A stretch of DNA of 64,000 bases from a virus, in the IMG/VR virus record IMGVR_UViG_3300037245_001213, positions 7,053 to 71,052 of that record; one strand, 5' to 3'. Made by a program: the position numbers and the translations under genes. Shown piece by piece: positions 427 through 47,177 of this stretch. How positions within the stretch are numbered: the first letter of the stretch is position 1; each line of letters begins with the position of its first letter. Under the pieces are notes generated by a model. The model was not told the origin of the DNA, searched no databases, and worked only from the letters and a program-made list of their open reading frames with translations.

Positions 427-701
427 GCGAAGCAAAAGAACTGAAGACAGTCGGGGAAGTGATAGACGCGTTGAGTGAGTTCCCGCGTAACCGACCTATC
501 CTCGGCACTTGGGAAGGCATCACTAGGTCCCTGCGAGTTTACAATACTCCTTCAGTTATTATTATCGACGCGGACGAGGGCGACTATCAAGCCAGTCTAC
601 AGGGTCTTCGGTGCGAATGTGGGGCTACTGCCAATGGTTTTCACAATGGTGAACCATACTGTTACACATGCTGGGAGAGGAAAGAAGATGAAAGTAATTA
701 A
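423..701 (+). CDS. hypothetical protein
   Basis: ORF ends 14 nt inside rtcB start; Cys-containing C-terminus (CECG...CYTCW). Confidence 0.45.
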   Translation: MSEAKELKTVGEVIDALSEFPRNRPILGTWEGITRSLRVYNTPSVIIIDADEGDYQASLQGLRCECGATANGFHNGEPYCYTCWERKEDESN

Positions 702-1833
702 CACTGAGAACCGACCGATTAAGATGTGGACTGACCTGGATGGTCCTGCGATGGCGCAGGCTAGGAATCTAGCCAACCTGCCCTTCACATTCAGTCACGT
801 AGCGATCATGCCTGACGCCCACATGGGCTATGGTATGCCTATCGGTGGTGTACTGGCCACTGAGGGCGTGGTCGTCCCTAACGCTGTTGGAGTGGACATT
901 GGGTGTGGCATGTGCGCGGTCAAGACCAACATTGGGCATGCGACCGAAGCACAGTTGAAGGAGACCGTGGCCGAGATTCGACGGCGTGTGCCGACAGGGT
1001 TCAAGAAGCATAAGTTCCCTCAGCACCCGGACTTGATGCCTGAGCCTTCTCCCTTCATGTTCGTGGCCACTAAGGAGTACGACAACGCCGCTAAGTCTCT
1101 CGGGACGTTAGGTGGCGGAAACCACTTCATCGAGATTCAGAATGATGGCGAGACTCTCTGGGTGATGATCCACTCAGGGTCCAGGAATCTTGGCAAGCAG
1201 GTCGCCGACCACTACAACAAGGTCGCCAAGAAAATGAATGAACGATGGTACTCTGAGGTGCCTAGTAAGTGGGACCTGGCATTCCTACCTACTACGAGTA
1301 TGGAGTACGTCAGCTACATTGACGAGATGAACTACTGCGTGAACTTCGCGATGGCCAATCGCAAGGCCATGATGGGTGAGGTTCTCCATTGCCTATCCGA
1401 GGTCTTCGGTCTTGTTTACCGTGAGGAACCGATCGACATTGCTCACAATTATGCAACCGTGGAGAATCACTTCGGGAAGAACGTCATAGTGCATCGTAAA
1501 GGTGCGACCAGGGCACGTGAAGGGGAGATCGGTATCATCCCTGGCTCGCAGGGCACATCGTCGTATATCGTCCAGGGTCTAGGTAACCCGCAGAGCTTCA
1601 ACTCCTGTTCGCACGGGGCCGGGCGCCGCATGGGACGTAAGGAAGCACAGCGTTCCCTGTCTCTCGAAGGCGAGCAGGACAAGCTGAAAGGTATCGTCCA
1701 CTCTGTGAGAGGCAGTAAGGACCTTGACGAAGCCCCTGGAGCCTACAAGGACATTGATACCGTCATGGCGAACCAGGAAGACCTGGTCGAAATTACCACC
1801 AAACTTACACCCTTAGCCGTAGTGAAAGGTTGA
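688..1833 (+). CDS. rtcB: RNA 3'-phosphate/2',3'-cyclic phosphate ligase RtcB
   Basis: Motifs HMGYGMPIGGV, GGGNHFIEIQ, GSRNLGKQVADHY, IAHNYATVENH, CSHGAGRRMGR. Start at ATG 688 (MKVINTEN) behind a GGAGAGGAAAG RBS; the track's ATG at 475 looks like upstream read-through. Confidence 0.9.
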   Translation: MKVINTENRPIKMWTDLDGPAMAQARNLANLPFTFSHVAIMPDAHMGYGMPIGGVLATEGVVVPNAVGVDIGCGMCAVKTNIGHATEAQLKETVAEIRRRVPTGFKKHKFPQHPDLMPEPSPFMFVATKEYDNAAKSLGTLGGGNHFIEIQNDGETLWVMIHSGSRNLGKQVADHYNKVAKKMNERWYSEVPSKWDLAFLPTTSMEYVSYIDEMNYCVNFAMANRKAMMGEVLHCLSEVFGLVYREEPIDIAHNYATVENHFGKNVIVHRKGATRAREGEIGIIPGSQGTSSYIVQGLGNPQSFNSCSHGAGRRMGRKEAQRSLSLEGEQDKLKGIVHSVRGSKDLDEAPGAYKDIDTVMANQEDLVEITTKLTPLAVVKG

Positions 1834-2246
1834 TTATGAAACACCCTGAAACCCATATGGTCACAGCCGAGCATGGGCCACGCCAAGCCAATCCCAACCG
1901 CTGCCTGTACTGTAAACAGCCTATCGGCTCGCTACATCTAGAGGACTGCGTGTGCCGTGATCGCACTGTGATGGTGAGAATGACCATAGACATTTGCATC
2001 AAAGCATGTGAGTCTGACACGGTCGAGGACATTAAGTTCTTCTTGAATGAGGGGAGCTGGTGTTCCAGTAACATCATCGACGACTTACAACGCGTCGAGT
2101 GTATCTGCCCTCATACGGAGTTCGAGTATATCGGGGAAGCTACCGAAGAGGACGAAGAGAATTGGAATCTTAGAATTCGCCGTGAATGCGCTTCAAAAGG
2201 ATCTGAAATGAAAAGTGAAAGTAAGAAACGCGGGGTAACATTTTAA
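1830..2246 (+). CDS. Cys-rich hypothetical protein (CLYC..IGSLHLEDC domain)
   Basis: N-terminal C-x-Y-C-x3-IG-x-LH-x-EDC motif shared with next ORF; acidic C-terminus. Confidence 0.5.
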   Translation: MIMKHPETHMVTAEHGPRQANPNRCLYCKQPIGSLHLEDCVCRDRTVMVRMTIDICIKACESDTVEDIKFFLNEGSWCSSNIIDDLQRVECICPHTEFEYIGEATEEDEENWNLRIRRECASKGSEMKSESKKRGVTF

Positions 2247-2276
2247 CACACTTCTACCTCCTTTGAATACTGGGAT

Positions 2277-4637: not shown

Positions 4638-4641
4638 GAAA

Positions 4642-5103: not shown

Positions 5104-6474
5104 ATGTACCTTATGATTCAGAACAAGGGTGTGGCACCAGAAGGTGCTTACACTATCCTTGGCGCCAGCGGTAACCGCGATGCTGACAACACCATCGGGC
5201 AGTTCGGCACTGGCAACAAGCATGCCATCAACTGCTGCCTCCGAGAGGGCCTTGAGGTTCGAGTCTACTGTGGCGCCGACCGCCTCAGTTTCGGGTACAC
5301 GGAAGAAAAGTTCGAGGATAAGATTGTCCATCGTATCACCCTGACGAAGAACGGTAAGAAGCCTGTGGAACGCGACTGGACGCTCGACTGGGGTTCCCTG
5401 GACTGGACCGACATTGGTATGGGTCTCAGGGAGTTCATCTCGAACGCGATCGACCGCTCTGAGCGGAACGGTGGCGTCCAGGAAGCCTTCGACACCGGAG
5501 ACCTGGTCGTGACTCTGACTGAGAAAATCCAGGCTAAGAGTGGATACACTCGGGTGTACATCGAAGTCAACGACGAAGTATTAAGTTACGTGGCAGAACT
5601 GAAGCAACGTTTTCTACACTTCAGTGGGTCTCCGAAGGGAACTATCCTCCTGAAGGCTAATCGAGGGATGGGCACCGACCGGGCTATGATTTACCGAGAA
5701 GGCGTGTACGTCCGTAGGGCTGGGCTCCAGTCGTTATTTGACTACAACTTTTCTGCCTCTGAATTGGAACTCGACGACTGTCGGAACAGTTCCGGCTATA
5801 CTGTTATGCTACGGGTCGGACATACCTTGCGGGACGCACCCGTGGACAAACTTATCATGGTCCTGGAGTCCCTCAGCCGGGGGGAGAAGACGCTGGAAGG
5901 CTCCTTGGACTCTACATGCCTGTCTCCTACCTGGACCGATCCTACGGACGCACAGAAGGAAACGTGGCAGACCGCCTGGAAGGCCTGTTTTGGGGATGCT
6001 ATCCTCACCGAAGGCAATGAGATGATCGATGGGTTCGTCAAGAGGAAAGGACACACCACTAAGGCCATCACCCAGGAGGGCTGGAGGACCGCGCTAGCGT
6101 ACTTCGGCGTCAAGACCCACCGAGAGGTCTTGTCTGACAACGAACGCCAGGGGAGGGTCACTGTGGCCTCCACAGAGGCCGCTGAGAAGGCAGTAGACCA
6201 GGTGTGGGAGTGGGTCAAGGCCGCTGGCATGGACTTCGGCATGGCTCGCCCACCTGTTAAGTGCTTCACCAACATTATGGACGCAGGATGCACGACCTTT
6301 GGATACTACGATGGCGGGACCGTGTACCTGAACCAGACTATCGCCGACGAATGTAACAAGATGACTCTGAAGGTGGCCCTCGAAGAGGTCGCCCACTATG
6401 TGACTGGTGCCGAGGACAATTCACGCGACTTCCAAGATTTCGCTTTTGGGTTCGCTGTCGAGTTCCTGGCCTAA
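5104..6474 (+). CDS. hypothetical protein (IGQFGTGNK glycine-rich motif)
   Basis: 456-aa ORF. N-terminal ILGASGNRDADNTIGQFGTGNKHAI resembles an Hsp90/GHKL G-box, but spacing is atypical. Confidence 0.6.
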   Translation: MYLMIQNKGVAPEGAYTILGASGNRDADNTIGQFGTGNKHAINCCLREGLEVRVYCGADRLSFGYTEEKFEDKIVHRITLTKNGKKPVERDWTLDWGSLDWTDIGMGLREFISNAIDRSERNGGVQEAFDTGDLVVTLTEKIQAKSGYTRVYIEVNDEVLSYVAELKQRFLHFSGSPKGTILLKANRGMGTDRAMIYREGVYVRRAGLQSLFDYNFSASELELDDCRNSSGYTVMLRVGHTLRDAPVDKLIMVLESLSRGEKTLEGSLDSTCLSPTWTDPTDAQKETWQTAWKACFGDAILTEGNEMIDGFVKRKGHTTKAITQEGWRTALAYFGVKTHREVLSDNERQGRVTVASTEAAEKAVDQVWEWVKAAGMDFGMARPPVKCFTNIMDAGCTTFGYYDGGTVYLNQTIADECNKMTLKVALEEVAHYVTGAEDNSRDFQDFAFGFAVEFLA

Positions 6475-6514
6475 CCAACCAAACCCACGAGATTAGCCTG
6501 GTACCGGGCTAGGA

Positions 6515-6591
6515 GAAGAGGGACGACTGAGCATACCCGCTCGGCGTTGGTAATGGGCACAGCCCTTGTAGGTTCAAATCCTGCCTCTTCA
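6515..6591 (+). tRNA. tRNA-like gene, class II-like (GGGC-aca-GCCC variable-arm hairpin), isotype undetermined
   Basis: Acceptor GAAGAGG/CCTCTTC, T-loop GGTTCAAATCC at 6571-6581. Anticodon arm not resolved by eye. Confidence 0.45.
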
Positions 6592-6592
6592 C

Positions 6593-6620
6593 TTGACAAG
6601 TACGTTTTACATGGTATACT
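6593..6620 (+). promoter_or_regulatory. sigma70-like promoter TTGACA-N16-TATACT
   Basis: Immediately 3' of the tRNA; TTGACA 6593-6598, TATACT 6615-6620, RBS AGGAGATAACAA before ATG 6639. Confidence 0.5.
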
Positions 6621-7017: not shown

Positions 7018-7087
7018 TGTGTGGTAGCTCAGAATGGTTAGAGCAGCGTTGATCGCGAAGAGGCGGGTTCGACTCCCGCCCGCACAG
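7018..7087 (+). tRNA. tRNA-like gene, canonical D- and T-arms, anticodon arm non-canonical
   Basis: Acceptor TGTGTGG/CCGCACA, D-arm TAGCTCAGAATGGTTAGAGC, T-arm GCGGGTTCGACTCCCGC. Only 17 nt separate D- and T-stems and no 5-bp/7-nt anticodon arm was found. Confidence 0.45.
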
Positions 7088-7387: not shown

Positions 7388-7460
7388 AGGGGAGGATTCA
7401 TGGCCCTCGGGGTGCCTGGAGGCAACGCTAGCATGGCAGGTTCAATTCCTGTTGCCCTTA
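7388..7460 (+). tRNA. tRNA-like element, low confidence
   Basis: T-arm-like GCAGGTTCAATTCCTGT within extended hairpin GGCAAC...GTTGCC; acceptor pairing imperfect. Confidence 0.3.
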
Positions 7461-7470: not shown

Positions 7471-7554
7471 TGCGTGGTAGTTTAACTAGTCTAAAATTCC
7501 AGGCAGGTATTGGCCTGCCACCTGGAGTCGGGGGTTCGAGTCCTCCTCACGCGC
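7471..7554 (+). tRNA. tRNA-like gene (84 nt), isotype undetermined
   Basis: Acceptor TGCGTGG/TCACGCG (2 G-U pairs), T-arm GGGGGTTCGAGTCCTCC, internal hairpin GGCAGG-tattgg-CCTGCC. Confidence 0.4.
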
Positions 7555-7555: not shown

Positions 7556-7627
7556 GCGGAGATAACTCAGTTCGGTAGAGCACCTCAGAAATGAGGAGGG
7601 TCACGGGTTCAAATCCCGTTCACGCAG
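7556..7627 (+). tRNA. tRNA-like gene with GAAA tetraloop in place of anticodon loop
   Basis: U8A9 + D-arm ACTCAGTTCGGTAGAGC and T-arm ACGGGTTCAAATCCCGT are canonical. The anticodon region folds as CCTCA-GAAA-TGAGG; acceptor pairing is imperfect. Confidence 0.45.
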
Positions 7628-8844: not shown

Positions 8845-8927
8845 GTGTGGGTAGGGTTGGTTGATCACCGCCCTTGGTTAGGTCGTGCCACAAGTGCTCG
8901 GCTGTAGGTTCGAGTCCTACACTCACA
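8845..8927 (+). tRNA. tRNA-like gene (about 83 nt, class II-like), isotype undetermined
   Basis: Acceptor TGTGGGT/ACTCACA, T-arm GTAGGTTCGAGTCCTAC. Confidence 0.4.
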
Positions 8928-9010
8928 CCTATCGACTAGAGCCGCTGTTATAAGCGGGTGGTGTGCATCTACCGGGTCGCACCCGGGAGCCGCATCAATC
9001 TCTAGTTGAG

Positions 9011-9087
9011 CGTGATAGTGGCGGTCGACGGGCCGTCATGGTTAATGGGGGTTCCACCCCCTGCGGGTTCGAGTCCTGCAATCACGT
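9011..9087 (+). tRNA. tRNA-like gene; possible TCC (Gly) anticodon loop gUTCCAc
   Basis: Acceptor CGTGATA/AATCACG, T-arm GCGGGTTCGAGTCCTGC, GGGGG-TTCCA-CCCCC hairpin; geometry not fully canonical. Confidence 0.4.
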
Positions 9088-9095: not shown

Positions 9096-9183
9096 AGCGA
9101 GGCGGGGAATCTTACGACCTCCCATGGAATGAAGTCTGGCGTCCGTAAGCCCGGACTTGTGGGTTCGAGACCCACTCTCGCTG
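9096..9183 (+). tRNA. tRNA-like gene (88 nt, class II-like long arm)
   Basis: Acceptor AGCGAGG/TCTCGCT, T-arm GTGGGTTCGAGACCCAC. Confidence 0.4.
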
Positions 9184-9825: not shown

Positions 9826-10019
9826 GCACTGACTACACTGTCCACAAACAAGGCACTAAGGAAGTCGTCATAATTGAAAGCTCGGCGAGGTACAACCTGG
9901 ACCTGGACGAGTACGGGCCAGATGACGGTTACGTGCTGGGCCCTCAAGGTATGACAGCCGAAGAGGCGCACGCGATTCAAAGGAGACGTAATGAGCAGTA
10001 TAGTAGAGAAACTCACTAA
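9822..10019 (+). CDS. hypothetical protein
   Basis: ORF chained by overlap. Confidence 0.4.
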   Translation: MSTDYTVHKQGTKEVVIIESSARYNLDLDEYGPDDGYVLGPQGMTAEEAHAIQRRRNEQYSRETH

Positions 10020-10923
10020 ACGAGGCCTGATCGACCCACCGAACTTCGTTAAGTCCAACACCATGTATGAATGCGTAGTAGGGTCCGTAGCCTATGGCAC
10101 GTCGGATGATCTGTCGGACTTCGATGTGAATGGGTTCTGTATCCCGCCGCGCGACGTGGTCTTCCCACATCTGAAAGGTGAGATCGAGGGCTTTGGTCGT
10201 AACAAGAAGAAGTTCGGCGGGTGGCAACAGCACCATATCAAGGACGAGGATGCGCTCAACGGTCTCGGCAGAGAATATGACCTCAATATCTACAACATCG
10301 TCAAGTACATGCAACTGTGCATGGAAAACAATCCGAACATGGTGACGACGTTGTTCGTGCCCAGGGATTGTGTGTTGTGGAGCACAGCCATTTCGGAGAT
10401 GGTACGTGAAAAGCGGAACATATTCCTGCACAAGGGCGCATGGCACAAGTACAAAGGCTACGCGTACGCCCAACGTCATAAGATGCAGGGAAAAAACCCT
10501 GAGCCTGGCTCTAAGCGGGACCTCCTACGTCAGAAGTATGGGTACGACGTAAAGTTCGCTATGCACACTGTGAGGCTTCTGTATGAGGCTGAGCAGATCC
10601 TGAACGAACTCACGATAGACATACGACGCCACAAAGAACACTTGAAAGCCATCCGGCACGGTGAGGTGCCAATGGACGACGTTCTGTCCTGGTGTGATTC
10701 TAAGGAAATAGCACTGGAGCGAGCCTATGAATCGTCCTCACTAAGGCATGGGCCAGATATCAAGGGCGTGAAGACCTTGCTCCTAGATTGCCTAGAGCAC
10801 CACTATGGCTCCCTGTCGAAGGTAGTGGCGCGCCCTGACGAACTCGCAGACATACTTGAGCAAATAGCTCTACAGACAGATAGGTACAAGCAAATTCAAA
10901 ACCGTAAGGGAAGCGTACAGTAA
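9991..10923 (+). CDS. nucleotidyltransferase (Pol-beta/minimal NTase superfamily)
   Basis: GSVAYGTSDDLSDFDV = hG[GS]x9-13Dh[DE]h NTase signature; RBS AAAGGAGACGTAATG. Confidence 0.55.
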   Translation: MSSIVEKLTKRGLIDPPNFVKSNTMYECVVGSVAYGTSDDLSDFDVNGFCIPPRDVVFPHLKGEIEGFGRNKKKFGGWQQHHIKDEDALNGLGREYDLNIYNIVKYMQLCMENNPNMVTTLFVPRDCVLWSTAISEMVREKRNIFLHKGAWHKYKGYAYAQRHKMQGKNPEPGSKRDLLRQKYGYDVKFAMHTVRLLYEAEQILNELTIDIRRHKEHLKAIRHGEVPMDDVLSWCDSKEIALERAYESSSLRHGPDIKGVKTLLLDCLEHHYGSLSKVVARPDELADILEQIALQTDRYKQIQNRKGSVQ

Positions 10924-10948: not shown

Positions 10949-11043
10949 GGCCGGGCAGGTAGTATAATGGAAGTACACCCTCGGGACTGGGTTTAGCAAT
11001 GGCCCATACGAGGAAGATGCGGGTTCGAGTCCCGCCCAGCCAC
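10949..11043 (+). tRNA. tRNA-like gene (unusually long, about 95 nt)
   Basis: T-arm GCGGGTTCGAGTCCCGC, D-loop-like GGTAGTATAATGG; acceptor GGCCGGG/CCCAGCC with one mismatch. Confidence 0.35.
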
Positions 11044-12208: not shown

Positions 12209-12793
12209 CTATATCACGTCACTGTGTGCGCCTCTCTCACGCAATCCATGGCCAGGGCGGCCATCTAAGAACCCAAGAACTTCTTCTGTTGCAAATGGGC
12301 GATAATCGCCTAGCCTTCTCTTCGCAGCATCCACACCAACGTCCATGGAACGGCGAGCAGGGAAAGCCAAGTCCATGGCGGCCTCGTGCTCAAGGTTGTC
12401 ATGGATGTGTCCAAAGCAGTGAAACGCCCCATAATGTGATTGTGGCCAATAGGCTGTAGGGTAATGAAAAGCCCACAGCAACTTCCCTCCCGTCTTCACC
12501 ATATAGTGGTCCCACACCCTTCCAAAGACTGCTTCAGTCTGGGCTCTTTTATCATGGTTCCCCATGCAAAAGAAGATGTGCCTACACTTAATCTTTGGTC
12601 GGTAGTGTCCGGGCTTGCGCAGGCAGAAATCCCCGGCAATAACCAGATGGTCATGTCGTCCAACGGTGCTGTTGATACCGTCAAGGATGGTTTCGTCGTG
12701 TTCTTCGACAGTGGAGAACTCTTTACGAGTCTGCTCCACTAGATTAACGCATCCGAAATGAGTGTCAGCCGTAAAGTACCAGTCAGGTTTCAT
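12209..12793 (-). CDS. calcineurin-like metallophosphoesterase
   Basis: Motifs VIAGDFC, GNHD, GHIHD. Confidence 0.7.
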   Translation of the reverse strand: MKPDWYFTADTHFGCVNLVEQTRKEFSTVEEHDETILDGINSTVGRHDHLVIAGDFCLRKPGHYRPKIKCRHIFFCMGNHDKRAQTEAVFGRVWDHYMVKTGGKLLWAFHYPTAYWPQSHYGAFHCFGHIHDNLEHEAAMDLAFPARRSMDVGVDAAKRRLGDYRPFATEEVLGFLDGRPGHGLRERGAHSDVI

Positions 12794-13548: not shown

Positions 13549-13567
13549 AGTACACTCCTATAAAGTG

Positions 13568-41727: not shown

Positions 41728-42987
41728 TCAGCATGACACGTCATCCATCATGTCGATCTTGTACCGCTTCGGACCCTTCTTCTCGTAGGGGCAACGCAGC
41801 TTGACAGGTAGCCGCCAGGTGATGCCATACTTCTTGTTGACGCCGTGAAGGAGTTGGGAGGGCTCTGTGTAGCCCGTCAACGCGTTGAAGGCGAAGGCAT
41901 CCGTAGCAGGCCATGCTCCATTGATAAGCATCTCACCGTTAAGCTCGGTCGTGCTACCAGGGCGATGGAAGTGACCGCAGCAATGGTACCGAACCGGGAC
42001 GCCCTTCTGGACAGTGTTCAGGGCAAGGATCTTGTACCGACGCTTCTCCAGGCCATACCAGGGCACGCCCAGGCTGGAACGGATATCATCACCATGAAAG
42101 ATGTGGAACCCGACACCGTCAATGTCCACGTTCACTGAGTAACTGTTCGGGATCACGAAGGTTACATTCTCCATGTCCGCACAGTACATCTCCGCTGTCT
42201 TGGCGATCAAATAGTCCCAGTTGTCATGCGCTCCATGGTAGTCCTTCTTCATGCTGCGACGCCCGTGGTTGCCCGGGACGTAGATGATGTTGACCTGATC
42301 GAAATACGGGGCCAGGTCGCGGAACATCAGACTGTGCAACTGACCGATCGCCAGGCTGTTCTTGAAGGCGTTCCGGAAATAGGACCGGCTGGTGTGGCCA
42401 TGGATCTCACCTGACGTATGGTCGCCATAGGCCAGGACAGTGAGCGACTGGAACCGGTACTGAGGCGCCAGCGTCCGCTGAGTCCACTTCAGGATCGTGT
42501 CCACGTATCGCTCAGCCCTACACATGCTGATCGGGAAGTCATAGGTCTCCAGCCCACCTGTGTCCGAAGGCGTCACAATCTGGTCATGGTGGCCATCTGA
42601 CAGGTGCATGACCAAATGCTCATTGATCTGGTCACCGCCTGTGTAAACAGGCCTGGCGTCCGGCAATGCCAACATAGGCTGTACCCGTCGATCCATCTCG
42701 TCCACGATGGCAGAGAACAGACCTTGAGTCTTGGCCGCCGACTTCAACTTACGCCTTGAGTCGTTGCGCTCTTCACGGAGATGCTCAATCTCGCCACGCA
42801 TCTTCAAGAACTCAGTGTCCTCAATCATTTCAGGCGTAGGGACGTCCTTGTGAACTCGCCCCGTAGCAATGTCAGAGATGACTGACCGGCTGATCTCAAA
42901 TTTCTCGCCAATCTCTGCCTGGGTCAAGCGCTTCTCCGACAGCATTGTCTTAATGTCGACCACTTGATCCTTATTTAGCTTCGTCAT
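41728..42987 (-). CDS. HTH-domain-containing metallophosphoesterase
   Basis: N-terminal LTQAEIGEKFEISRSVISDI HTH; MPP motifs LSDGHHD, YGDH, PGNHGRR, FHGDD, CGHFH. Confidence 0.55.
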   Translation of the reverse strand: MTKLNKDQVVDIKTMLSEKRLTQAEIGEKFEISRSVISDIATGRVHKDVPTPEMIEDTEFLKMRGEIEHLREERNDSRRKLKSAAKTQGLFSAIVDEMDRRVQPMLALPDARPVYTGGDQINEHLVMHLSDGHHDQIVTPSDTGGLETYDFPISMCRAERYVDTILKWTQRTLAPQYRFQSLTVLAYGDHTSGEIHGHTSRSYFRNAFKNSLAIGQLHSLMFRDLAPYFDQVNIIYVPGNHGRRSMKKDYHGAHDNWDYLIAKTAEMYCADMENVTFVIPNSYSVNVDIDGVGFHIFHGDDIRSSLGVPWYGLEKRRYKILALNTVQKGVPVRYHCCGHFHRPGSTTELNGEMLINGAWPATDAFAFNALTGYTEPSQLLHGVNKKYGITWRLPVKLRCPYEKKGPKRYKIDMMDDVSC

Positions 42988-44896
42988 TCAACTCTCCAAT
43001 TAGAACAGGGTTACCGCGCTCAGTTGTATCAGCAATCATGTACTCGACAGCCTTCAGGAAGTTCCCATCAGGCGGCGAGAACATTATCTTCTTTAGATCA
43101 AGTCCTTCTAGTTCAATACGGTGCTCAGACCGATATGTTTCATTATCAATCATCTCGATGCAGATATCGACAAACTTCTCCGCGTCCTTGGTTGTCAACT
43201 CCGGCATACCTATCTGACGAAGCAAATGTGATGCCGCTTTATTGTAGAACCGGTCTCCTTCCAGAGTCACAACAGGTAGTCCAAGGTAGAAAGCCTCGAC
43301 GATAGTGTTGTAACCCCCGAAGGGGAAAGAGTTTACAGCGAAATCACCCTTCTCTGACCTTTCCATATATTCTGCATAATGCAAGCTATGATGAATGACA
43401 GAGTTAGGAAGTAGTTGCGAAATCACCTCACTGAAGGGCACAAAGCCCCCATACCTGTTTATAGCAGGTGAAGGGTAGAAATGCCACTCATGCTCAGTAG
43501 TAGCCCGCCGACTGATCTCGCGAAGAACTTCAAGCATCATCACGTTGTACTTATCGGGGCCCCACACGCAGTTGATCTCGACCGGGGACTTCTCCACCCA
43601 ATTGTTCTTTTTCTCATAGGAGGGCCACGCAGGGTGCTGAGCCAAGCCTGGCAGAAGAATCATCTGCTCCGAGTATTGGTCTCCACAGTCCTTTTCGACA
43701 TCCCCACCTACAAAGTAGTCAATGCAATTGTTGTGGCCCGTCGTGGCCGGGTGACCATACCCAACGGCCTGTACTGGAGCAAGACGGCAATTCGAGAGCC
43801 AGATGGATTCCTCAAGCATCCCAATGTCAGGGAAGTAGGCCAACTGGAAATCGTTGTCCTTCACCTCAGGAGGAAAGGCCAGGTTCCCATCTTTGAACTT
43901 CACATTGCAGACATTATCAAATCCATCTATCATCAGGTCCTCAGGTACGTGTTCGCCCAGGTGAATTAAGGTGAGTTTGTACTTGCCTTTCAGTTCTTCG
44001 ACCAAAGGAGATGCCGACTTGTATACAGCATGATTACGGTGCCACTTACCAGAGATTATCGCGATGCTCTTGGGATCAGGTTTGTTGTTAATCTTCACGT
44101 TGAGCACTTTGGAGCACGCCTTGTTGATCCGGCTCTTCACTTCCAGGTCGAGTTTAGGCGCGAAGTAAGTGGTGGTAAAGTACAACGCGGAGATCTGAGG
44201 ACAAGGTGGCGCCCATCGGTCATCCATGTTCTCCAAATGGTGGAGGTAGGAATAGTGTAGGAATCGAGTAGGGTTACTGGTACCCAATACGAAAGAGTTG
44301 AACCAGATGGAAGCCATCTCGGGATTCACGTCAAACAACTTCGATTGCTCGATCTCGACCTCGCAACGCGCGTTCAATAGGAACAACAGGCGTTGGTAGT
44401 TATTCTGCTGACGAAGGACGTGCTTCACAACAGGAGTGGTTACATGGTAGTTTGAGGTGGCCACCAGGTTGGAAAAGACATGACCCATAGAGATCAGCAT
44501 CTTGGCATCCATATCGGCGAACTTGATGTCCCCAGTCATCACGATGAAAACCATCATCACAAAGTCATCAATGTTCCTCCGGTCCTGTGAACTGTATGTT
44601 GTATACGAATTACGTTCAAAGAAGATAAGAATCGAGATGATCGCCTGCGCTACCTTGTGAGGGTCGCCGTTGATGATGGCTTTCAGGTACTTAATACGCT
44701 TAACTACCGGAAGACCTTCTTTTGGTGCGCCCGGCATAATGTTCAGATGGTTCTTAGACATTTCTTTACTCCTATTAGGGCGTTCGGCCGACCATAAAGT
44801 TGTGGACAGCGATAAGCCATGTGAAAATACTTCCTTCTGGGCAACAGATTTACTGCTATCAAACATTGCTTTCCTCGTAACGTTGCAGTAATCCAT
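42971..44896 (-). CDS. GT41-family (O-GlcNAc-transferase-like) glycosyltransferase, no TPRs
   Basis: C-terminal FPFGGYNTIVEAFYLGLPVVTLEGDRFYNKAASHLLRQIGMPEL resembles OGT NGHTT..LWMGVPVVT..ASRVAAS..G..EL. Confidence 0.5.
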   Translation of the reverse strand: MDYCNVTRKAMFDSSKSVAQKEVFSHGLSLSTTLWSAERPNRSKEMSKNHLNIMPGAPKEGLPVVKRIKYLKAIINGDPHKVAQAIISILIFFERNSYTTYSSQDRRNIDDFVMMVFIVMTGDIKFADMDAKMLISMGHVFSNLVATSNYHVTTPVVKHVLRQQNNYQRLLFLLNARCEVEIEQSKLFDVNPEMASIWFNSFVLGTSNPTRFLHYSYLHHLENMDDRWAPPCPQISALYFTTTYFAPKLDLEVKSRINKACSKVLNVKINNKPDPKSIAIISGKWHRNHAVYKSASPLVEELKGKYKLTLIHLGEHVPEDLMIDGFDNVCNVKFKDGNLAFPPEVKDNDFQLAYFPDIGMLEESIWLSNCRLAPVQAVGYGHPATTGHNNCIDYFVGGDVEKDCGDQYSEQMILLPGLAQHPAWPSYEKKNNWVEKSPVEINCVWGPDKYNVMMLEVLREISRRATTEHEWHFYPSPAINRYGGFVPFSEVISQLLPNSVIHHSLHYAEYMERSEKGDFAVNSFPFGGYNTIVEAFYLGLPVVTLEGDRFYNKAASHLLRQIGMPELTTKDAEKFVDICIEMIDNETYRSEHRIELEGLDLKKIMFSPPDGNFLKAVEYMIADTTERGNPVLIGELNDEAK

Positions 44897-45983
44897 CTAC
44901 CAAAATTAAGATGGTGATTGATAGTCCCATCGATTTGATCTCAGCGGCTATGTCAGCGGCTCGCCAGGTCGTAGTCACGATGATTTCACTTGGTTTCAGA
45001 TCTCTCAGTGTCTCCGGAGAGTGAATCTCGAAGTCCGTCCCAGGAACGTAACTTCCCCACTTACGGCTGTCCGAGTCTATGACCATTGCGGCTTTTAGAT
45101 TGAGCATGTTGATAGTGTTCGCGCACTTTCCCGCGCCTCCCCAGAACACAGGTGTCTCCAGGCAGTTCAGGTGAGCCCCAGTGGCTAGAAGGTTGTCGTA
45201 GGCCAGGGCGATGCGTGTGGTGACAGGACACTTGGTGTCGGCCAGGCTGGCGGTGGCCAATAGAACCTCGTCGTTGTAGAGTTGCTCTACCTCGTAGGTG
45301 TTCCACCCCGACAAGTCCAGTAGGGTCGTTAGGCTATCCGGCGTGAAGTGTTGAGGGTGCTCATACACCCAGTCTTCCAGTCGGCCTGCCTCAAAGGCAG
45401 GTAGGATATTAGGCACCTCGATAATCAGGTAAGGAGTCAGGTGGCAGCGGTGAGCGTTGTACGACAGGTCTTCTAGAAAGCTCCTAGGGCTGGCGAAGTG
45501 CTCAAGCACATGACGCATTATGATAGCATCAGGCTTATCCATTTCCATAGAAATACCATCGAAGTACGTATTATGTGACTCGGTGACTTCCGAGCAAAAC
45601 ACATAATCATCTGAAGGCTCGTAGGCGACATAATTATGGCCGTTGAACAGGGCTGCAAACTCACCACGTCCTGCCCCAATCTCAACAATAATACCATTGC
45701 AGTCCTGGCACAGGTCTTTGACAACCCAGGCCACGTCTTGCATGTGCGTGGCCCACTCTTCGCCTTTGTTGTACATCGTACATCCGCCAGCATGACACTG
45801 GTCGAAGTCAGGGTCGTAGGATGCGTTGAAAGTGTGGGTGCATTGCAAGCACTGCCTGATACTTACCGGGAATCGACGTGCATAAGCATTAGGCTGAGTA
45901 GGTAAATCAAGTACACTGAGAGGCAGTAGATCGAGATCCGCCACTCGGTATGTGAGAGCAGAATTACAAACTGGGCACTTCAT
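44859..45983 (-). CDS. Zn-ribbon SAM-dependent methyltransferase (TylCIII/NDP-hexose C-methyltransferase-like architecture)
   Basis: N-terminal CPVC...CLQC, motif I VEIGAGRGEF, extended C-terminal domain. Confidence 0.55.
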   Translation of the reverse strand: MKCPVCNSALTYRVADLDLLPLSVLDLPTQPNAYARRFPVSIRQCLQCTHTFNASYDPDFDQCHAGGCTMYNKGEEWATHMQDVAWVVKDLCQDCNGIIVEIGAGRGEFAALFNGHNYVAYEPSDDYVFCSEVTESHNTYFDGISMEMDKPDAIIMRHVLEHFASPRSFLEDLSYNAHRCHLTPYLIIEVPNILPAFEAGRLEDWVYEHPQHFTPDSLTTLLDLSGWNTYEVEQLYNDEVLLATASLADTKCPVTTRIALAYDNLLATGAHLNCLETPVFWGGAGKCANTINMLNLKAAMVIDSDSRKWGSYVPGTDFEIHSPETLRDLKPSEIIVTTTWRAADIAAEIKSMGLSITILILVDGLLQRYEESNV

Positions 45984-46143
45984 TCCATTCCTCCTGGTCT
46001 TGTGCGTACTGATCAGCTACCAAATAGACGCCTTGAGAGTCATCCTCTACTCGGCAAATCCGCTGGTACTCTCCAGAGTCTAAGAATATCTCAGAGTCAG
46101 GAGGCATCGAACTCAATTCATTTACGAGGTCTTCTACTGTCAT
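45964..46143 (-). CDS. hypothetical small protein
   Basis: Internal start MTVEDLVNEL overlapping the ligase stop. Confidence 0.35.
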   Translation of the reverse strand: MTVEDLVNELSSMPPDSEIFLDSGEYQRICRVEDDSQGVYLVADQYAQDQEEWNEVPSL

Positions 46144-47177
46144 CCTAGATCCTTTGCTCCTTTTCGCTGATAGTAGTCCACCGAGACCGACTTGAGAATC
46201 AAGCGACCTCCGAGGATATCTGAATGCCGTTCGCAAAGTGGCTTGATAACCACCCCTTCGCGACCTTTGAACTTGCAGCGGATGTTATCATCAAGGGTCA
46301 TGGTAGTTGCGCCATTAGTAGCCGTCTCTACAATCTTCTGATCAAACGGTCCACAATACATTGAATTGACAATTGGTACATTATGCTTATCAGTCCAGAT
46401 GCGGAAGTTCACATCCGACATGTACTGGCCGTCTATTGAAATATCGAAGGCCCTGAACCCGGGCACAGGTTGACCATAGTCCATGTCCTGGATGCCCTGC
46501 CCGAAGATCTCACCGAACACGATTACATTACTGCGCTTGAGGCCTGACAGTTCGCGGAGAATCGGCTCAACAATCTCCATCGGCTTCCAGTACATTGTCC
46601 GAGGGTCGCCTTCTACTCGTCTGGTCTTGTGAGAGCCCGCAACGAGTTCCCCGTCGATAATCCCAAGGCGCACGTTCGTGCCATGTATCTTTTCCGTGAT
46701 ACGCACCATTTCATCCGTGAAGACGCCTGGGTGGTTACGGATATTCTCGATTGAAGTGTACTGGTGAAAGGCATCAAGAGGCGGCAGGCAGTCGCCGCCA
46801 AGTACCCTCACAGGGGGGTGGTACTTCCTACCATCATACTGATCCGTTACATCCAAGCCATATTTACCATTTATAGGTCCTTGCAGGAACCCAAAGCTCG
46901 GGACTCCCCGCAGGCGACAGGCGCTGACCCGGCACTGGGTCTTCATCCCGTCCCCAGGGTAGACAGCGTGCTTCAGGTACTGCTTCACCCCCAGGCGCAC
47001 GGCCACATCTTCAGGGAGAAGCATATCGGGTGGGAAGTAGATGCCAGCATCACCTACCTTATATGCCCCCTTCTGGACGACTACAGTGTAGCCGAGCACC
47101 TGGACCACTTCCAGGCGATCAGCGTTAGGATGGTCCTCGACGCTGTTGATACGTTCGATGGTTATGGCAGTCTTCAC
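46140..47177 (-). CDS. ATP-dependent RNA ligase (Rnl2-like) fused to N-terminal tRNA-binding OB domain
   Basis: N-term IERINSVEDHPNADRLEVVQV...YKVGD (CsaA/Trbp111-like tRNA_bind). Ligase motifs EKIHGTN, VIVFGEIFG, RAFDISIDG, REGVVIKP. Confidence 0.65.
   Translation of the reverse strand: MKTAITIERINSVEDHPNADRLEVVQVLGYTVVVQKGAYKVGDAGIYFPPDMLLPEDVAVRLGVKQYLKHAVYPGDGMKTQCRVSACRLRGVPSFGFLQGPINGKYGLDVTDQYDGRKYHPPVRVLGGDCLPPLDAFHQYTSIENIRNHPGVFTDEMVRITEKIHGTNVRLGIIDGELVAGSHKTRRVEGDPRTMYWKPMEIVEPILRELSGLKRSNVIVFGEIFGQGIQDMDYGQPVPGFRAFDISIDGQYMSDVNFRIWTDKHNVPIVNSMYCGPFDQKIVETATNGATTMTLDDNIRCKFKGREGVVIKPLCERHSDILGGRLILKSVSVDYYQRKGAKDLG

What the first reader, a model, noticed from the sequence alone, without database searches (positions are those of the whole stretch)
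688..47177. Phage RNA-repair toolkit next to a large tRNA set: RtcB, an Rnl2-type ligase fused to a tRNA-binding domain, a minimal NTase and a metallophosphoesterase
Two RNA ligases with different end chemistry are encoded:
- RtcB (688-1833) joins 3'-P/2',3'-cyclic-P ends to 5'-OH ends.
- An Rnl2-like ATP-dependent ligase (46140-47177) joins 3'-OH/5'-P ends.

The Rnl2-like ligase carries an N-terminal OB-fold tRNA-binding domain of the CsaA/Trbp111 type. I do not recall this fusion in described phage ligases.

Also present are a Pol-beta-type nucleotidyltransferase (9991-10923) that could re-add CCA or heal ends, a calcineurin-like phosphoesterase (12209-12793) that could act as an end phosphatase, and about 11 tRNA or tRNA-like genes.

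This looks like a multi-route tRNA break-repair system. It would plausibly counter host anticodon nucleases such as PrrC, RloC, colicin-like enzymes or VapC.
Basis: partly seen in the sequence, partly recalled or inferred. Interest (0 to 1): 0.7.

Follow-up and report, generated by a model that had tools for sequence, protein, structure and literature searches.

The report
Phage RNA-repair genes with tRNA mimics
An uncultured phage carries a known type of RNA-repair gene set (RtcB, an RlaP nucleotidyltransferase, a DraRnl/Rnl5-type RNA ligase and a small phosphoesterase); the supposedly new ligase fusion is that family's normal architecture, and the "large tRNA set" is one real tRNA plus about nine conserved tRNA-shaped RNAs that cannot decode.

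Summary
All four proteins are present at the stated coordinates.
- 688-1833 is an intact RtcB.
- 9991-10923 is an RlaP nucleotidyltransferase (PF10127), not a toxin-antitoxin MNT.
- 12209-12793 is a small metallophosphoesterase: all signature motifs, PHROG 547, but below the Pfam cut-offs.
- 46140-47177 is an ATP-dependent RNA ligase of the Rnl5 (DraRnl/NgrRnl, TIGR02306) family, not Rnl2.

The ligase N-domain does fold like Trbp111/CsaA/PheRS-B2. However, OB plus nucleotidyltransferase is the defining, long-described Rnl5 architecture, with phage members known since 2007. At least 3646 homologues were found, and all but two of the 120 listed carry both domains.

Phage RNA-repair toolkits of RtcB, ATP-dependent ligases, RlaP, phosphoesterases and tRNAs are already described. 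No 5'-kinase was found, and Rnl5 enzymes seal duplex nicks rather than loop breaks.

The tRNA set is the unexpected part. Eleven T-arm elements exist, but only tRNA-Asn is canonical. About nine others keep the acceptor stem, T-arm and often the D-arm, while the anticodon arm is replaced by mini-hairpins, a GAAA tetraloop or long two-tier stems.

Elements matching five or six of them in two related phage contigs keep the structures through compensatory changes. They are conserved non-decoding tRNA mimics of unknown function.

The parts
688..1833 (+). RtcB, a 3'-phosphate/5'-OH RNA ligase (381 aa from the ATG at 688; the ORF is open from a GTG at 475)
   Evidence: Pfam RtcB E = 2e-112. PHROG 1075 E = 1e-122. 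Active-site motifs align with PH1602 RtcB, including the GMP-attachment His in SHGAGR.
5104..6474 (+). Conserved 456-aa protein of unknown function. It lies between RtcB and the tRNA-like cluster, so it is possibly part of the module.
   Evidence: No Pfam, NCBIfam or PDB match. PHROG 8203 is of unknown function. At least 797 homologues of about 475 aa exist. Homologues sit in the same block in L001/L083, L082, L163 and L164. Homologues at 63-70% identity are followed directly by related tRNA-like elements in L165/L166/L167.
6514..6592 (+). tRNA-like RNA t1: acceptor stem, long hairpin, single-stranded UGGUAAU, short hairpin, T-arm. It has no anticodon arm.
   Evidence: Matching elements at L166 2141-2223 and L167 3509-3593 show compensatory changes in the T-stem and hairpins.
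7018..7087 (+). tRNA-like RNA t2: canonical acceptor, D- and T-arms, with the 'anticodon arm' reduced to a 3-bp stem and a 5-nt loop.
   Evidence: Rfam tRNA 40.4 bits, with 7 nt where the model has 11. The related element at L167 4113-4184 has a 4-bp stem and 6-nt loop, with 5 compensatory pairs and none broken.
7388..7460 (+). Doubtful element t3: T-arm plus a 6/7 acceptor stem. It overlaps an RBS + ATG that could open a 22-codon ORF.
   Evidence: fold z-score +0.3. Read directly from the sequence.
7471..7554 (+). tRNA-like RNA t4: the anticodon arm is replaced by a 13-bp two-tier hairpin with a 3-nt bulge, containing AUUGGCC.
   Evidence: Read by eye, its arm resembles that of L167 4029-4112; this pair was not aligned or pair-counted (sequences).
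7556..7626 (+). tRNA-like RNA t5: D- and T-arms are kept, and a 5-bp stem is capped by a GAAA tetraloop instead of a 7-nt anticodon loop.
   Evidence: Rfam tRNA 32.1 bits, with 4 nt where the model has 7. Fold.
8846..8928 (+). tRNA-like RNA t6. ARAGORN calls it 'tRNA-Thr(GGU)' at 8840-8929, with mismatches and a long extra arm.
   Evidence: ARAGORN. The Rfam tRNA model does not reach threshold; the only hit is tRNA-Sec at 24 bits against a cut-off of 47.
9011..9087 (+). tRNA-like RNA t7: acceptor stem, 9-bp hairpin with a GACG loop (GGUCGACGGGCC), linker AUGGUUAAU, second hairpin, T-arm.
   Evidence: Against L166 2369-2443, 22 pairs are predicted: 9 compensatory, 5 one-sided, 0 broken. The same CGACGGG hairpin occurs in the element after RlaP in L001.
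9096..9183 (+). tRNA-like RNA t8: same layout as t1, t6 and t7. Its acceptor resembles that of the double-T-arm element of L166/L167.
9991..10923 (+). RlaP-family Pol-beta nucleotidyltransferase
   Evidence: PF10127 E = 1e-18. PHROG 388 E = 2e-43. GS-x10-DFD motif. 79 viral and more than 350 metagenome loci encode relatives at 40-78% identity.
10953..11043 (+). tRNA-like RNA t9, directly after RlaP: D- and T-arms are kept, and the anticodon arm is replaced by a two-tier stem containing AAUGGCC.
   Evidence: Rfam tRNA 32.4 bits, with 32 nt where the model has 13. The related element at L167 4029-4112 has a swapped-strand lower stem.
12209..12793 (-). Small calcineurin-type metallophosphoesterase (194 aa)
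   Evidence: PHROG 547 E = 7e-38. Motifs DTH, GDF, GNHD, H and GHIH. PDB 1xm7. Homologues lie next to RlaP in 11 of 77 loci. Pfam scores are below the cut-offs.
13565..13665 (-). tRNA-like RNA t10: canonical acceptor, D- and T-arms, with a 43-nt two-tier arm (4 bp, a 6/3 internal loop, 6 bp, 12-nt loop).
   Evidence: Rfam tRNA 39.2 bits. The related element at L166 1923-2016 has the same architecture but entirely different stem sequences, plus a compensatory acceptor change.
27767..27839 (-). The only canonical tRNA: tRNA-Asn(GUU)
   Evidence: Rfam 71.8 bits. ARAGORN.
46140..47177 (-). Rnl5 (DraRnl/NgrRnl, DRB0094) family ATP-dependent RNA ligase: N-terminal OB domain plus C-terminal nucleotidyltransferase domain. 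Its start overlaps the helicase stop by 4 nt.
   Evidence: Invariant in 28 homologues: T161, E162, K163, H165, G166 (motif I), E223 (III), R306, E307, G308 (IV), K329 (V) and K118 in the OB domain.
42971..45983 (-). Methyltransferase (44859-45983) and GT41-like glycosyltransferase (42971-44896), conserved neighbours of the ligase
   Evidence: Pfam. The same pair flanks Rnl5 in L161 and in L002, there in a different order and fused to RlaP-MPE.
47174..48979 (-). Helicase directly upstream of, and overlapping, the ligase gene
   Evidence: Helicase_C. ORF coordinates.
6593..6620 (+). Strong sigma-70-type promoter (TTGACA-16-TATACT) starting 1 nt after t1. Equivalent sites lie at 7629-7656 (after t5), 9185-9212 (after t8) and 5046-5073.
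   Evidence: These are the four best matches of the scan, at 10-11 of 12 positions.

Best explanation
**What the window is.** It is most of a contig of at least 71 kb from an uncultured tailed phage.

**The protein part.** The phage carries a member of the already described class of phage RNA-repair gene sets.
[quoted passage not shown] The family and active site are shown here; the substrate is inferred.
- RlaP adds one or two nucleotides to a trimmed 3'-OH end, so that a tRNA that lost a base (RloC-type damage) can be rebuilt. The family and motif are shown here; the activity is taken from Pseudomonas RlaP biochemistry.
- The small metallophosphoesterase probably removes 3'- or 2',3'-cyclic phosphates (inferred).
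- The Rnl5 ligase seals 3'-OH/5'-P nicks where the 3' strand is RNA within a duplex (inferred from DraRnl/NgrRnl). This would serve broken stems of structured RNAs, or RNA-DNA junctions, rather than loop breaks.
- In this phage the ligase has moved into the replication block, together with its conserved methyltransferase and glycosyltransferase partners.

**The RNA part.** The rightward block holding RtcB and RlaP is punctuated by about nine tRNA-shaped genes (a tenth, t3, is doubtful; t10 lies just outside the block on the other strand).
- These genes keep the parts of tRNA read by RNase P, RNase Z, the CCA-adding enzyme and elbow-binding proteins.
- They lack a decoding anticodon loop.
- They sit at the ends of transcription units, immediately before the next promoter.
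- The most likely reading is that they are cut out as stable tRNA mimics that act in trans, as decoys or partners in the same RNA-damage conflict. This step is inferred and is the weakest of the explanation.
For: **Family assignments**
-.

**Published activities**
- RlaP: PMC12776372.
- Rnl5: PMC1807946, PMC7261155 and the abstract of PMC4408790.
- Phage RNA-repair toolkits: PMC7824862.

**Gene linkage in other phages**
- Among 77 distinct RlaP loci of at least 15 kb, RtcB lies within 10 kb in 6, Rnl5 in 8 and the phosphoesterase in 11.
- L002 has an overlapping RlaP-MPE-MTase-GT41-Rnl5 gene row; five further loci show the same RlaP/MPE/ligase order. L117 has Rnl5-RtcB-RlaP.
- Relatives of this phage carry further RNA-surveillance parts at the corresponding places: Ro60 with Y RNAs, and tmRNA.

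**tRNA-like RNAs**
- Twelve-fold excess of T-loops.
- All elements lie in gaps left by an independent gene caller.
- The aberrations are concentrated in the anticodon arm.
- Elements matching t1, t2, t7, t9 and t10 in L166 and L167 keep the predicted helices: in the three pairs that aligned well, 3-9 compensatory pairs per family, with none broken for t2 and t7 and 5 broken for t1. The arms of t9 and t10 are iso-structural with their counterparts when folded separately.
- Promoters start 1-3 nt after t1, t5 and t8.
Against: - The four protein genes are not one operon here. The ligase is 33 kb from RtcB/RlaP, on the other strand, coupled to a helicase.
- No polynucleotide kinase was found, so anticodon-nuclease products could not enter the ATP-ligase route.
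- No host, no anticodon nuclease and no expression data are known.
- The phosphoesterase has no demonstrated RNA substrate in any member.
- The closest RlaP relatives (L081, L082, L001) lack the tRNA-like cluster, so the RNAs are not obligatory partners of RlaP or RtcB.
- Covariation rests on only 2-3 sequences per family.
Confidence: 0.6

Rival explanations
1. There are two unrelated modules. RtcB + RlaP (+ phosphoesterase) serve RNA repair. The Rnl5 ligase, with the helicase, methyltransferase and GT41-like glycosyltransferase, belongs to DNA replication, repair or modification, for example sealing nicks whose 3' end is ribonucleotide. It would have nothing to do with tRNA.
For: - The ligase start overlaps the helicase stop.
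- The Rnl5-MTase-GT41(-419 aa) block is conserved beside replication genes in L161.
- Rnl5 enzymes need a duplex nick, and DraRnl protects against ionising radiation.
- The OB domain contacts the ATP gamma-phosphate in NgrRnl. No tRNA binding has been shown for it.
Against: - In L002 the same ligase-MTase-GT41 block is translationally coupled to RlaP-MPE; L088, L091, L099, L109 and L124 show the same RlaP/MPE/ligase order. In L117 the ligase abuts RtcB-RlaP.
- RlaP is by definition an RNA-ligase-associated enzyme.
Confidence: 0.3
2. The tRNA-like elements are Y-RNA-type partners of a Ro60 (Rsr) protein encoded outside the window. This would mirror the bacterial rsr-yrlA-rtcBA operon, with the altered 'anticodon' arm as the Ro60-binding helix.
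For: - Relatives encode Ro60 with adjacent Y RNAs (L163).
- Other RlaP phages have Ro60 preceded by tRNA-shaped RNAs that carry a capped Ro-binding helix with the GNCGAA motif (L095, L109, L124).
- RtcB occupies in the window the position Ro60 has in L163.
- t10 has GGCCGAUU on a two-tier stem.
- About 7 kb of the source contig is unseen (contig length 71,052).
Against: - No TROVE or Ro60 gene is in the 64 kb (tblastn; Pfam scans).
- The GNCGA-like string of t10 is absent from the matching element in L166.
- Most elements (t1, t2, t5, t6, t7, t8) have no Y-like helix.
- Rfam YrlA and Y_RNA models give nothing significant in the window.
Confidence: 0.12
3. The tRNA-like elements are decaying tRNA pseudogenes, or merely structured mRNA 3' ends and processing punctuation, with no trans function.
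For: - Only 2-3 related sequences per family are available.
- The closest RlaP relatives lack them.
- They sit at transcript ends just before promoters, with no terminators. This fits a processing or stabilising role.
- t3 is weak.
Against: - Damage is confined to the anticodon arm, while acceptor, T- and mostly D-arms stay near consensus.
- The replacement arms are stable designed-looking helices: a GAAA tetraloop and 13-bp stems.
- They are iso-structural in matching elements despite complete sequence turnover, with compensatory changes.
Confidence: 0.2
4. Some elements are intron-containing tRNAs (Gly-GCC in t4, Phe-GAA in t10) whose short inserts are excised and whose exons are joined by the phage RtcB.
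For: - ARAGORN with introns allowed and thresholds lowered finds canonical-looking 7-nt loops: CUGCCAC in t4 and UUGAAAA in t10.
- RtcB is the tRNA-splicing ligase of archaea and animals.
Against: - The inferred introns sit at non-canonical positions (31/32, 32/33).
- There is no bulge-helix-bulge motif and no splicing endonuclease.
- The loop readings are not conserved in the matching elements. The L166 counterpart of t10 has a UCGCU loop, and the L167 element resembling t4/t9 has no U33 loop.
Confidence: 0.04

Closest known systems
Rnl5 family of RNA ligases (Deinococcus DraRnl / DR_B0094, Naegleria NgrRnl; TIGR02306, Pfam PF21189 + PF09414, NCBI PHA02142 from Aeromonas phage 44RR2.8t)
   Same: - N-terminal OB domain plus C-terminal nucleotidyltransferase domain, ending about 16 residues after motif V.
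- Motif I is T-E-K-x-H-G, as in DraRnl; motifs III, IV (EGVV) and V are present.
- The fold matches NgrRnl over its whole length.
   Different: - Only 22-29% identical to NgrRnl and to cultured-phage members.
- TIGR02306 score is 143.9 bits, just under the 151.15 cut-off.
- Activity is untested.
- Here the gene is coupled to a helicase, a methyltransferase and a GT41-like glycosyltransferase.
Phage RNA-repair toolkits described for jumbo phages (Iyer et al. 2021, PMC7824862) and the RNA-repair systems survey of Burroughs & Aravind (ref. 178 of that paper)
   Same: A combination of RtcB and an ATP-dependent ligase, with RlaP, phosphoesterases and phage tRNA genes. These are proposed to counter host attacks on tRNAs.
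   Different: - This contig is at least 71 kb, so the phage is probably not jumbo.
- The ATP ligase is Rnl5 rather than the usual Rnl1/Rnl2.
- No kinase, HAD or 2H phosphoesterase was found.
- The tRNA genes are almost all non-decoding mimics.
Bacterial RtcB operons: RtcB-RlaP-RtcA of Pseudomonas (PMC12776372) and rsr-yrlBA-rtcBA of Salmonella (PMC4201824, PMC7790460)
   Same: - RtcB is linked to RlaP.
- RtcB is linked to tRNA-like non-coding RNAs.
   Different: - No RtcA, RtcR or Ro60 is present in the window.
- The RNAs are not circularly permuted like YrlA, and most lack a Ro-binding helix.
T4 Pnkp + Rnl1 repair of PrrC-cleaved tRNA-Lys, and T4 NrdC.11 (an RlaP)
   Same: The logic is the same: the phage reverses host anticodon-nuclease damage. 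T4 also carries an RlaP.
   Different: RtcB needs no end healing. No Pnkp or Rnl1 homologue was seen in this window.
T4 RNA C and RNA D: small stable RNAs from the T4 tRNA gene region, function unknown (PMC3014915)
   Same: Small non-tRNA RNAs encoded among phage tRNA-type genes, with no known role.
   Different: No sequence relationship was tested. Here there are about nine such genes against one real tRNA, and they fall into several structural families.

Membership tests
Rnl5 (DraRnl/NgrRnl) RNA ligase | N-terminal OB module fused to a C-terminal nucleotidyltransferase domain, with no C-terminal appendage | tested here: met
   - PF21189 at residues 5-98 and PF09414 at 158-329.
- The model matches NgrRnl over about 360 columns, E = 1e-21.
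- The protein ends at residue 345; motif V Lys is at 329.
Rnl5 (DraRnl/NgrRnl) RNA ligase | Covalent nucleotidyltransferase motifs I (KxHG/KxDG lysine), III, IV and V, and the OB-domain lysine that contacts the ATP gamma-phosphate | tested here: met
   - Invariant in 28 homologues: T161, E162, K163, H165, G166; E223; R306, E307, G308; K329; K118.
- K163 and K118 align with the NgrRnl motif I lysine and the TKWEPP lysine.
Rnl5 (DraRnl/NgrRnl) RNA ligase | Passes the curated family model TIGR02306 | tested here: inconclusive
   143.9 bits over the full length (residues 7-337 against model positions 5-340 of 341), but the cut-off is 151.15. JGI names several listed homologues, including close ones, 'RNA ligase (TIGR02306 family)'.
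Rnl5 (DraRnl/NgrRnl) RNA ligase | Seals 3'-OH(RNA)/5'-PO4 nicks in duplexes, Mn-dependent | not testable with these tools
   This needs a biochemical assay.
   TIGR02307 scores 36 bits against a cut-off of 197, covering the nucleotidyltransferase part only. Foldseek aligns T4 Rnl2 over only 236 columns, E = 7e-10. There is no C-domain.
Trbp111/CsaA/EMAPII/PheRS-B2 tRNA-binding OB fold (for the ligase N-domain) | Fold similarity to this OB subclass | tested here: met
RtcB | RtcB domain with metal-binding Cys/His/Asp residues and the GMP-accepting histidine | tested here: met
   PF01139 scores 376.8 bits. All motifs align with PH1602.
RlaP (PF10127) nucleotidyltransferase | Passes PF10127; Pol-beta GS...DxD catalytic motif; genomic linkage to RNA ligases | tested here: met
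   - 68.4 bits against a cut-off of 23.
- The sequence VGSVAYGTSDDLSDFD carries the motif.
- RtcB lies 8 kb upstream here, and ligases lie adjacent in other loci.
   The protein is 310 aa and its only Pfam hit is RlaP. The neighbouring ORFs are short and were not identified as HEPN, but they were not scanned individually.
Calcineurin-like metallophosphoesterase | Motifs DxH, GD, GNH[DE], H and GHxH; passes the Pfam Metallophos models | tested here: inconclusive
   All five motifs are present, PHROG 547 gives E = 7e-38 and PDB 1xm7 matches. PF00149 and PF12850 score only about 17 bits, below their cut-offs. An RNA-end substrate is untested.
Decoding tRNA (for the 11 elements) | Cloverleaf with a 5-bp anticodon stem and a 7-nt loop (U33, purine 37); passes the Rfam and ARAGORN models | tested here: not met
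   - Only 27767-27839 passes cleanly, at 71.8 bits.
- t2, t5, t9 and t10 reach 32-40 bits only by skipping the anticodon arm.
- t1, t3, t4, t7 and t8 are called by neither tool at default settings.
- t6 is a strained ARAGORN call.
- Sources.
Y RNA / YrlA | Ro60 gene nearby; Ro-binding helix with the GNCGAA motif; tRNA-like module | tested here: not met
   - No Ro60 is in the window.
- Rfam YrlA gives only a 24-bit artefact spanning t4/t5.
- The tRNA-like module is present.
- Ro60 and Y RNAs do occur in relatives.
tmRNA | tRNA-like domain with G3:U70 and a tag reading frame | tested here: not met
   ARAGORN and Rfam find none in the window. Relatives L163 and L164 do have tmRNA. t7 shares only the UCGACGGG string with the tmRNA 5' region.

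The most novel reading that the evidence does not exclude
The roughly nine aberrant elements (t1, t2, t4-t10) would be a new class of phage-encoded, non-decoding tRNA mimics.
- They keep the acceptor/T-arm/elbow 'top half' of tRNA as a scaffold.
- The anticodon arm is exchanged for family-specific modules: a mini-hairpin, a GNRA tetraloop, two-tier stems with AAUGGCC, or a GACG hairpin.
- They would be released from the 3' ends of early transcripts.
- They would act in trans with, or alongside, RtcB and RlaP. Possible roles are decoys that soak up host tRNA-targeting nucleases or toxins, or scaffolds and cofactors for repair, as Y RNAs are for Ro60.
Probability: 0.3. Interest if true: 0.75.

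Novelty: new variant of a known kind. Interest (0 to 1): 0.42.

Why it matters
**The finding as written.** It matters little.
- It adds one more divergent phage to the known list of phages carrying RtcB, RlaP and an ATP-dependent RNA ligase.
- It corrects the ligase assignment to Rnl5.
- One useful by-product: in several phages Rnl5, the small phosphoesterase and RlaP lie close together in a conserved order (one overlapping gene row in L002), often with a methyltransferase and a GT41-like glycosyltransferase. This gives a genomic hint to the still-uncharted physiological role of Rnl5 ligases.

**The tRNA-shaped genes.** These are the part worth following.
- A phage that keeps about nine tRNA look-alikes, with conserved structures but no anticodon, is not explained by the usual ideas of codon-usage compensation or replacement of cleaved tRNAs.
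- If they prove to be decoys or cofactors in the conflict over tRNA integrity, they would be a new kind of player in phage counter-defence.
- They might also shed light on other unexplained small phage RNAs, such as T4 RNA C and RNA D.

Tried and rejected
- **Megablast of 12 kb against 50,697 phage records:** no match. The phage is very divergent; its PolA is at most 27.6% identical to any cultured phage over partial alignments.
- **Intron-containing tRNA reading:** rejected. ARAGORN with introns allowed and relaxed thresholds places the introns at non-canonical positions, and the 'anticodon loops' are not conserved in matching elements.
- **Ro60 in the window:** not found by tblastn with two phage Ro60 proteins or by Pfam scans.
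- **tmRNA in the window:** not found.
- **Closest RlaP relatives as comparators for the RNAs:** L001, L081 and L082 lack the cluster. The T-loop hits in L082 are chance matches inside genes.
- **Pattern scans of IMG/VR.**
  - The t1-family pattern gave one hit, which was not analysed.
  - The CGACGGG...T-arm pattern was too loose. It returned ordinary tRNAs, uncalled elements, and several short elements with tmRNA-like 5' and 3' ends.
- **Look-ups that failed.**
  - P0002 is not on record.
  - The 71-kb JGI contig could not be fetched, so the remaining 7 kb was not seen; only short Logan contigs came back.
- **Alignment limits.**
  - MAFFT misaligned the t1 family, so no covariance model was built.
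  - Covariation counts come from my own script on 2-3 sequences per family. The central arms of the t9 and t10 pairs were misaligned there and had to be compared by separate folding.
- **456-aa protein:** a profile search against the PDB found nothing.
- **Polynucleotide kinase, HAD/2H phosphoesterase, RtcA, CCA-adding enzyme:** none among the roughly 55 window ORFs scanned. ORFs under about 120 aa were mostly not scanned.

Full report
**1. What the window is**

The window carries the following phage genes (except where noted):
- a family A DNA polymerase (29125-31641, -);
- a class II ribonucleotide reductase interrupted by a LAGLIDADG intein (34720-37332, -);
- a helicase (47174-48979, -);
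- a DUF5906 primase-like protein (53081-55933, +);
- a tail protein (58694-61858, -);
- an ATP-dependent DNA ligase (19728-20813, -);
- ThyX, dCMP deaminase, a DNA methylase and ParB-like proteins.

It has no nucleotide-level relative among 50,697 phage records. Its polymerase is at most 27.6% identical to that of any cultured phage, over partial alignments.

Identical proteins occur on a JGI contig of 71,052 nt and on Logan contigs of run SRR11832402. This is therefore an uncultured tailed phage, and about 7 kb of its contig was not seen.

**2. The four proteins**

*RtcB (688-1833).* This is an intact RtcB. Pfam gives E = 2e-112. All metal-binding motifs and the GMP-histidine motif align with Pyrococcus RtcB.

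*RlaP (9991-10923).* This belongs to PF10127, at 68 bits against a cut-off of 23, and has the Pol-beta GS...DFD motif. The family is named for its linkage to RNA ligases and includes T4 NrdC.11. Two Pseudomonas members add one or two NMP to RNA 3'-OH ends and are needed to restore aminoacylation of over-damaged tRNA (PMC12776372). It is not a minimal MNT antitoxin.

*Phosphoesterase (12209-12793).* This scores below the Pfam cut-offs. Three other lines of evidence support it:
- it belongs to PHROG 547 'phosphoesterase', E = 7e-38;
- it has all five metallophosphoesterase motifs;
- it resembles Aquifex aq_1665, PDB 1xm7.
Its substrate is unknown.

*Ligase (46140-47177).* This is an ATP-dependent RNA ligase of the Rnl5 family, not Rnl2.
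- Pfam finds the PHA02142 OB-fold domain plus RNA_ligase.
- TIGR02306 (RNA ligase, DRB0094 family) aligns end to end at 143.9 bits, against 36 bits for Rnl2.
- The best solved relative is Naegleria NgrRnl.
- An AlphaFold model (pLDDT 88.6) superposes on NgrRnl over its whole length (E = 1e-21, TM 0.70). T4 Rnl2 matches the nucleotidyltransferase domain only.
- In 28 homologues the motif I T-E-K163-x-H-G (the DraRnl form), E223, R306-E-G308, K329 and the OB-domain K118 are invariant.

**3. The 'new fusion'**

This is the defining architecture of the DraRnl/NgrRnl clade. Raymond and Shuman (2007) described the N-module as a putative homologue of the PheRS OB fold and aligned the Aeromonas phage 44RR2.8t protein. 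Rnl5 members are listed in bacteriophages.

Here, at least 3646 homologues were found, and all but two of the 120 listed carry both domains. Cultured Aeromonas, Caulobacter, Brevundimonas and Pseudomonas phages have full-length copies annotated 'RNA ligase'.

In NgrRnl the OB domain contacts the ATP gamma-phosphate and is needed for adenylylation. tRNA binding has not been shown.

**4. Is it one system?**

Within this window it is not one physical cluster. RtcB, RlaP and the phosphoesterase lie within 12 kb. The ligase is 33 kb away on the other strand, its start overlapping the helicase stop. It is followed by a Methyltransf_23/14 methyltransferase and a GT41-like glycosyltransferase.

Linkage in other phages nevertheless supports a functional tie. 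Among 77 distinct RlaP-centred loci of at least 15 kb:
- RtcB is within 10 kb in 6, the Rnl5 ligase in 8 and the phosphoesterase in 11;
- L002 has an overlapping gene row RlaP-MPE-methyltransferase-GT41-Rnl5-exonuclease, and L088, L091, L099, L109 and L124 show the same RlaP/MPE/ligase order with about 3 kb between MPE and ligase;
- L117 has Rnl5-RtcB-RlaP.

The same ligase-methyltransferase-GT41 trio sits beside replication genes in L161.

- Characterised Rnl5 enzymes seal nicks in duplexes whose 3'-OH strand is RNA. That is not the single-stranded loop break made by anticodon nucleases.
- No 5'-kinase was found in any ORF scanned.

RtcB alone is a complete route for 2',3'-cyclic-P/5'-OH breaks.

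The concept itself is published for jumbo phages: phage RtcB and ATP ligases with RlaP, phosphoesterases and tRNAs as a counter to tRNA-cutting defences (PMC7824862).

**5. The 'tRNA set'**

The T-loop motif occurs 12 times against 0.98 expected. Eleven occurrences have a matching acceptor stem and fall in gaps left by an independent gene caller.

However, ARAGORN calls two tRNAs and the Rfam tRNA model five. Only tRNA-Asn(GUU) at 27767-27839 is canonical.

The others keep the acceptor stem and T-arm, and often a textbook D-arm. They differ precisely where the anticodon arm should be:
- t2 has a 3-bp stem and a 5-nt loop.
- t5 has a 5-bp stem with a GAAA tetraloop.
- t4, t9 and t10 have 30-43-nt two-tier stems.
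- t1, t6, t7 and t8 have a long hairpin, a single-stranded WGGWAAN linker and a second hairpin.
- t3 is weak and may be a small ORF.

In 2.2 Mb of other RlaP loci, ARAGORN recognises 72% of T-arm/acceptor elements as tRNAs. In the window it recognises 2 of 10.

**6. They are conserved, not decayed**

Two contigs encode homologues of the 456-aa protein 5104-6474: L165/L166 at 70% identity and L167 at 63%. Both carry related elements directly downstream.

| Window element | Related element | Evidence |
|---|---|---|
| t7 | L166 2369-2443 | 22 predicted pairs: 9 compensatory, 5 one-sided, 0 broken |
| t2 | L167 4113-4184 | 5 compensatory pairs, 0 broken; the mini-arm is kept |
| t1 | L166 2141-2223, L167 3509-3593 | 3 compensatory pairs, 5 broken in at least one sequence; a conserved UACCCGCUC string in t1 and L166 |
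| t10 | L166 1923-2016 | same architecture of 4-5 bp, 6/3 internal loop, 5-6 bp, with no stem sequence in common |
| t9 | L167 4029-4112 | two-tier arm with AAUGGCC and a strand-swapped lower stem; t4 looks similar by eye but was not aligned |

The intron readings that ARAGORN offers at relaxed settings, Gly-GCC in t4 and Phe-GAA in t10, are not conserved in these related elements. They lack any bulge-helix-bulge motif and are rejected.

The four strongest promoter matches of the region (TTGACN-16-TATACT) start 1-3 nt after t1, t5 and t8, and upstream of the 456-aa gene. No terminators intervene. The RNAs therefore lie at the 3' ends of transcription units.

**7. Context from relatives**

Relatives of this phage and other RlaP phages encode further RNA-surveillance parts at corresponding places:
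- L163 has Ro60 with three small Y RNAs, and a tmRNA. L164 has a tmRNA next to the phosphoesterase.
- In L095, L109 and L124, Ro60 is preceded by 120-126-nt RNAs. These have normal acceptor, D- and T-arms plus an inserted capped helix carrying the Ro-binding GNCGAA motif (motif from PMC4201824).

The window has neither Ro60 nor tmRNA. RtcB sits where Ro60 sits in L163.

**8. Verdict**

- The best explanation is a member of the known class of phage RNA-repair gene sets. RtcB and RlaP form the core; the Rnl5 ligase and phosphoesterase are linked but mechanistically less certain parts.
- What departs from known cases is that the accompanying 'tRNA' genes are conserved, non-decoding tRNA mimics. 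Their function is unknown.
- I favour stable trans-acting mimics (decoys or cofactors) over pseudogenes, introns or Ro60 partners. This is inference.

Noticed in passing
window 5104-6474 (+): A 456-aa protein from a large family (at least 797 homologues of about 475 aa, roughly 40-50% identical) with no Pfam, NCBIfam or PDB match. Homologues sit between RtcB/Ro60 and RlaP in relatives (L001, L082, L163, L164). The consensus contains REFVSNAIDR, which resembles a GHKL ATPase N-box, and GQFGSGxK.
   Followed up: partly
window 42971-47177 (-); L002 10001-16567; L161 10001-15420: A conserved gene set: Rnl5 ligase + Methyltransf_23/14 (sugar C-methyltransferase-like) + GT41/HMW1C-like glycosyltransferase, sometimes with a 419-aa protein. 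The order differs between phages. In L002 it is translationally coupled to RlaP and the phosphoesterase. The reason for the link between an RNA ligase and a methyltransferase/glycosyltransferase pair is unknown.
   Followed up: partly
L109 2902-3155; L124 1943-2188; L095 5326-5530 and 6511-6582: RNAs of 120-126 nt with normal tRNA acceptor, D- and T-arms, plus an inserted capped helix carrying the Ro60-binding GNCGAA motif. Each lies immediately upstream of a phage Ro60 gene. They look like non-permuted counterparts of YrlA. Some retain plausible 7-nt anticodon loops (AUGUUAA, UUUAGGA).
   Followed up: partly
L163 13216-13535; L164 10805-11125; L163 1159-1501: Relatives of this phage encode full tmRNAs (tags AEANYALAA and AEVNYAIAA). 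L163 also has three small Y RNA-like genes upstream of Ro60.
   Followed up: partly
L176 (about 3000-3115), L195, L199, L217, L219, L226, L241 (IMG/VR contigs): RNAs of about 80-90 nt that look like the tRNA-like domain of tmRNA alone. They have GGGG...UUCGACGGG at the 5' end, UUCGGAC + T-arm + ...CUCCACCA at the 3' end, and G3:U70. No room for a tag reading frame is apparent.
   Followed up: no
L009 6859-6929; L018 7571-7641: Otherwise canonical tRNA-like genes in other RlaP phages with a 6-nt 'anticodon' loop (GGUUGA / GGUUCA). ARAGORN reports a 2-nt anticodon. This is the loop size expected of a tRNA resealed after loss of one nucleotide.
   Followed up: no
window 6944-7014 (+) and 6488-6510 (+): A structured leader upstream of t2 (CCAAGG...CCUUGG and CUUGAGG...CCUCAAG pairings) and a hairpin just upstream of t1 (AGCCUGG...CCGGGCU). 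Both are conserved with changes in L166.
   Followed up: no
L166 2021-2117; L167 3387-3486: An element with one acceptor stem enclosing two T-arm-like hairpins, conserved between two contigs with compensatory changes. Window t8 has a similar acceptor but a different interior.
   Followed up: partly
window 55930-56823 (+); 25456-26148, 33788-34288, 22370-23029, 23589-24569 (-): A protein with a dATP/dGTP diphosphohydrolase N-terminal domain (MazZ-like, E = 1e-21), together with ThyX, dCMP deaminase, an NT5C-type nucleotidase and a radical SAM enzyme. This hints at altered nucleotide pools or a modified base. No PurZ-like gene was seen.
   Followed up: no
window 34720-37332 (-): A class II ribonucleotide reductase interrupted by a LAGLIDADG intein. 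The same arrangement occurs in relative L161.
   Followed up: no
L001 10926-11064: Directly after RlaP in the 73%-identical relative lies a 139-nt element with an acceptor stem, D-arm and T-arm and an insert of about 85 nt. An alternative 75-nt reading has a UUUCAAC loop, i.e. anticodon UCA.
   Followed up: partly
L167 893-2002: A Cas12f1-like/TnpB gene sits immediately upstream of the homologue of the 456-aa protein in a related contig.
   Followed up: no
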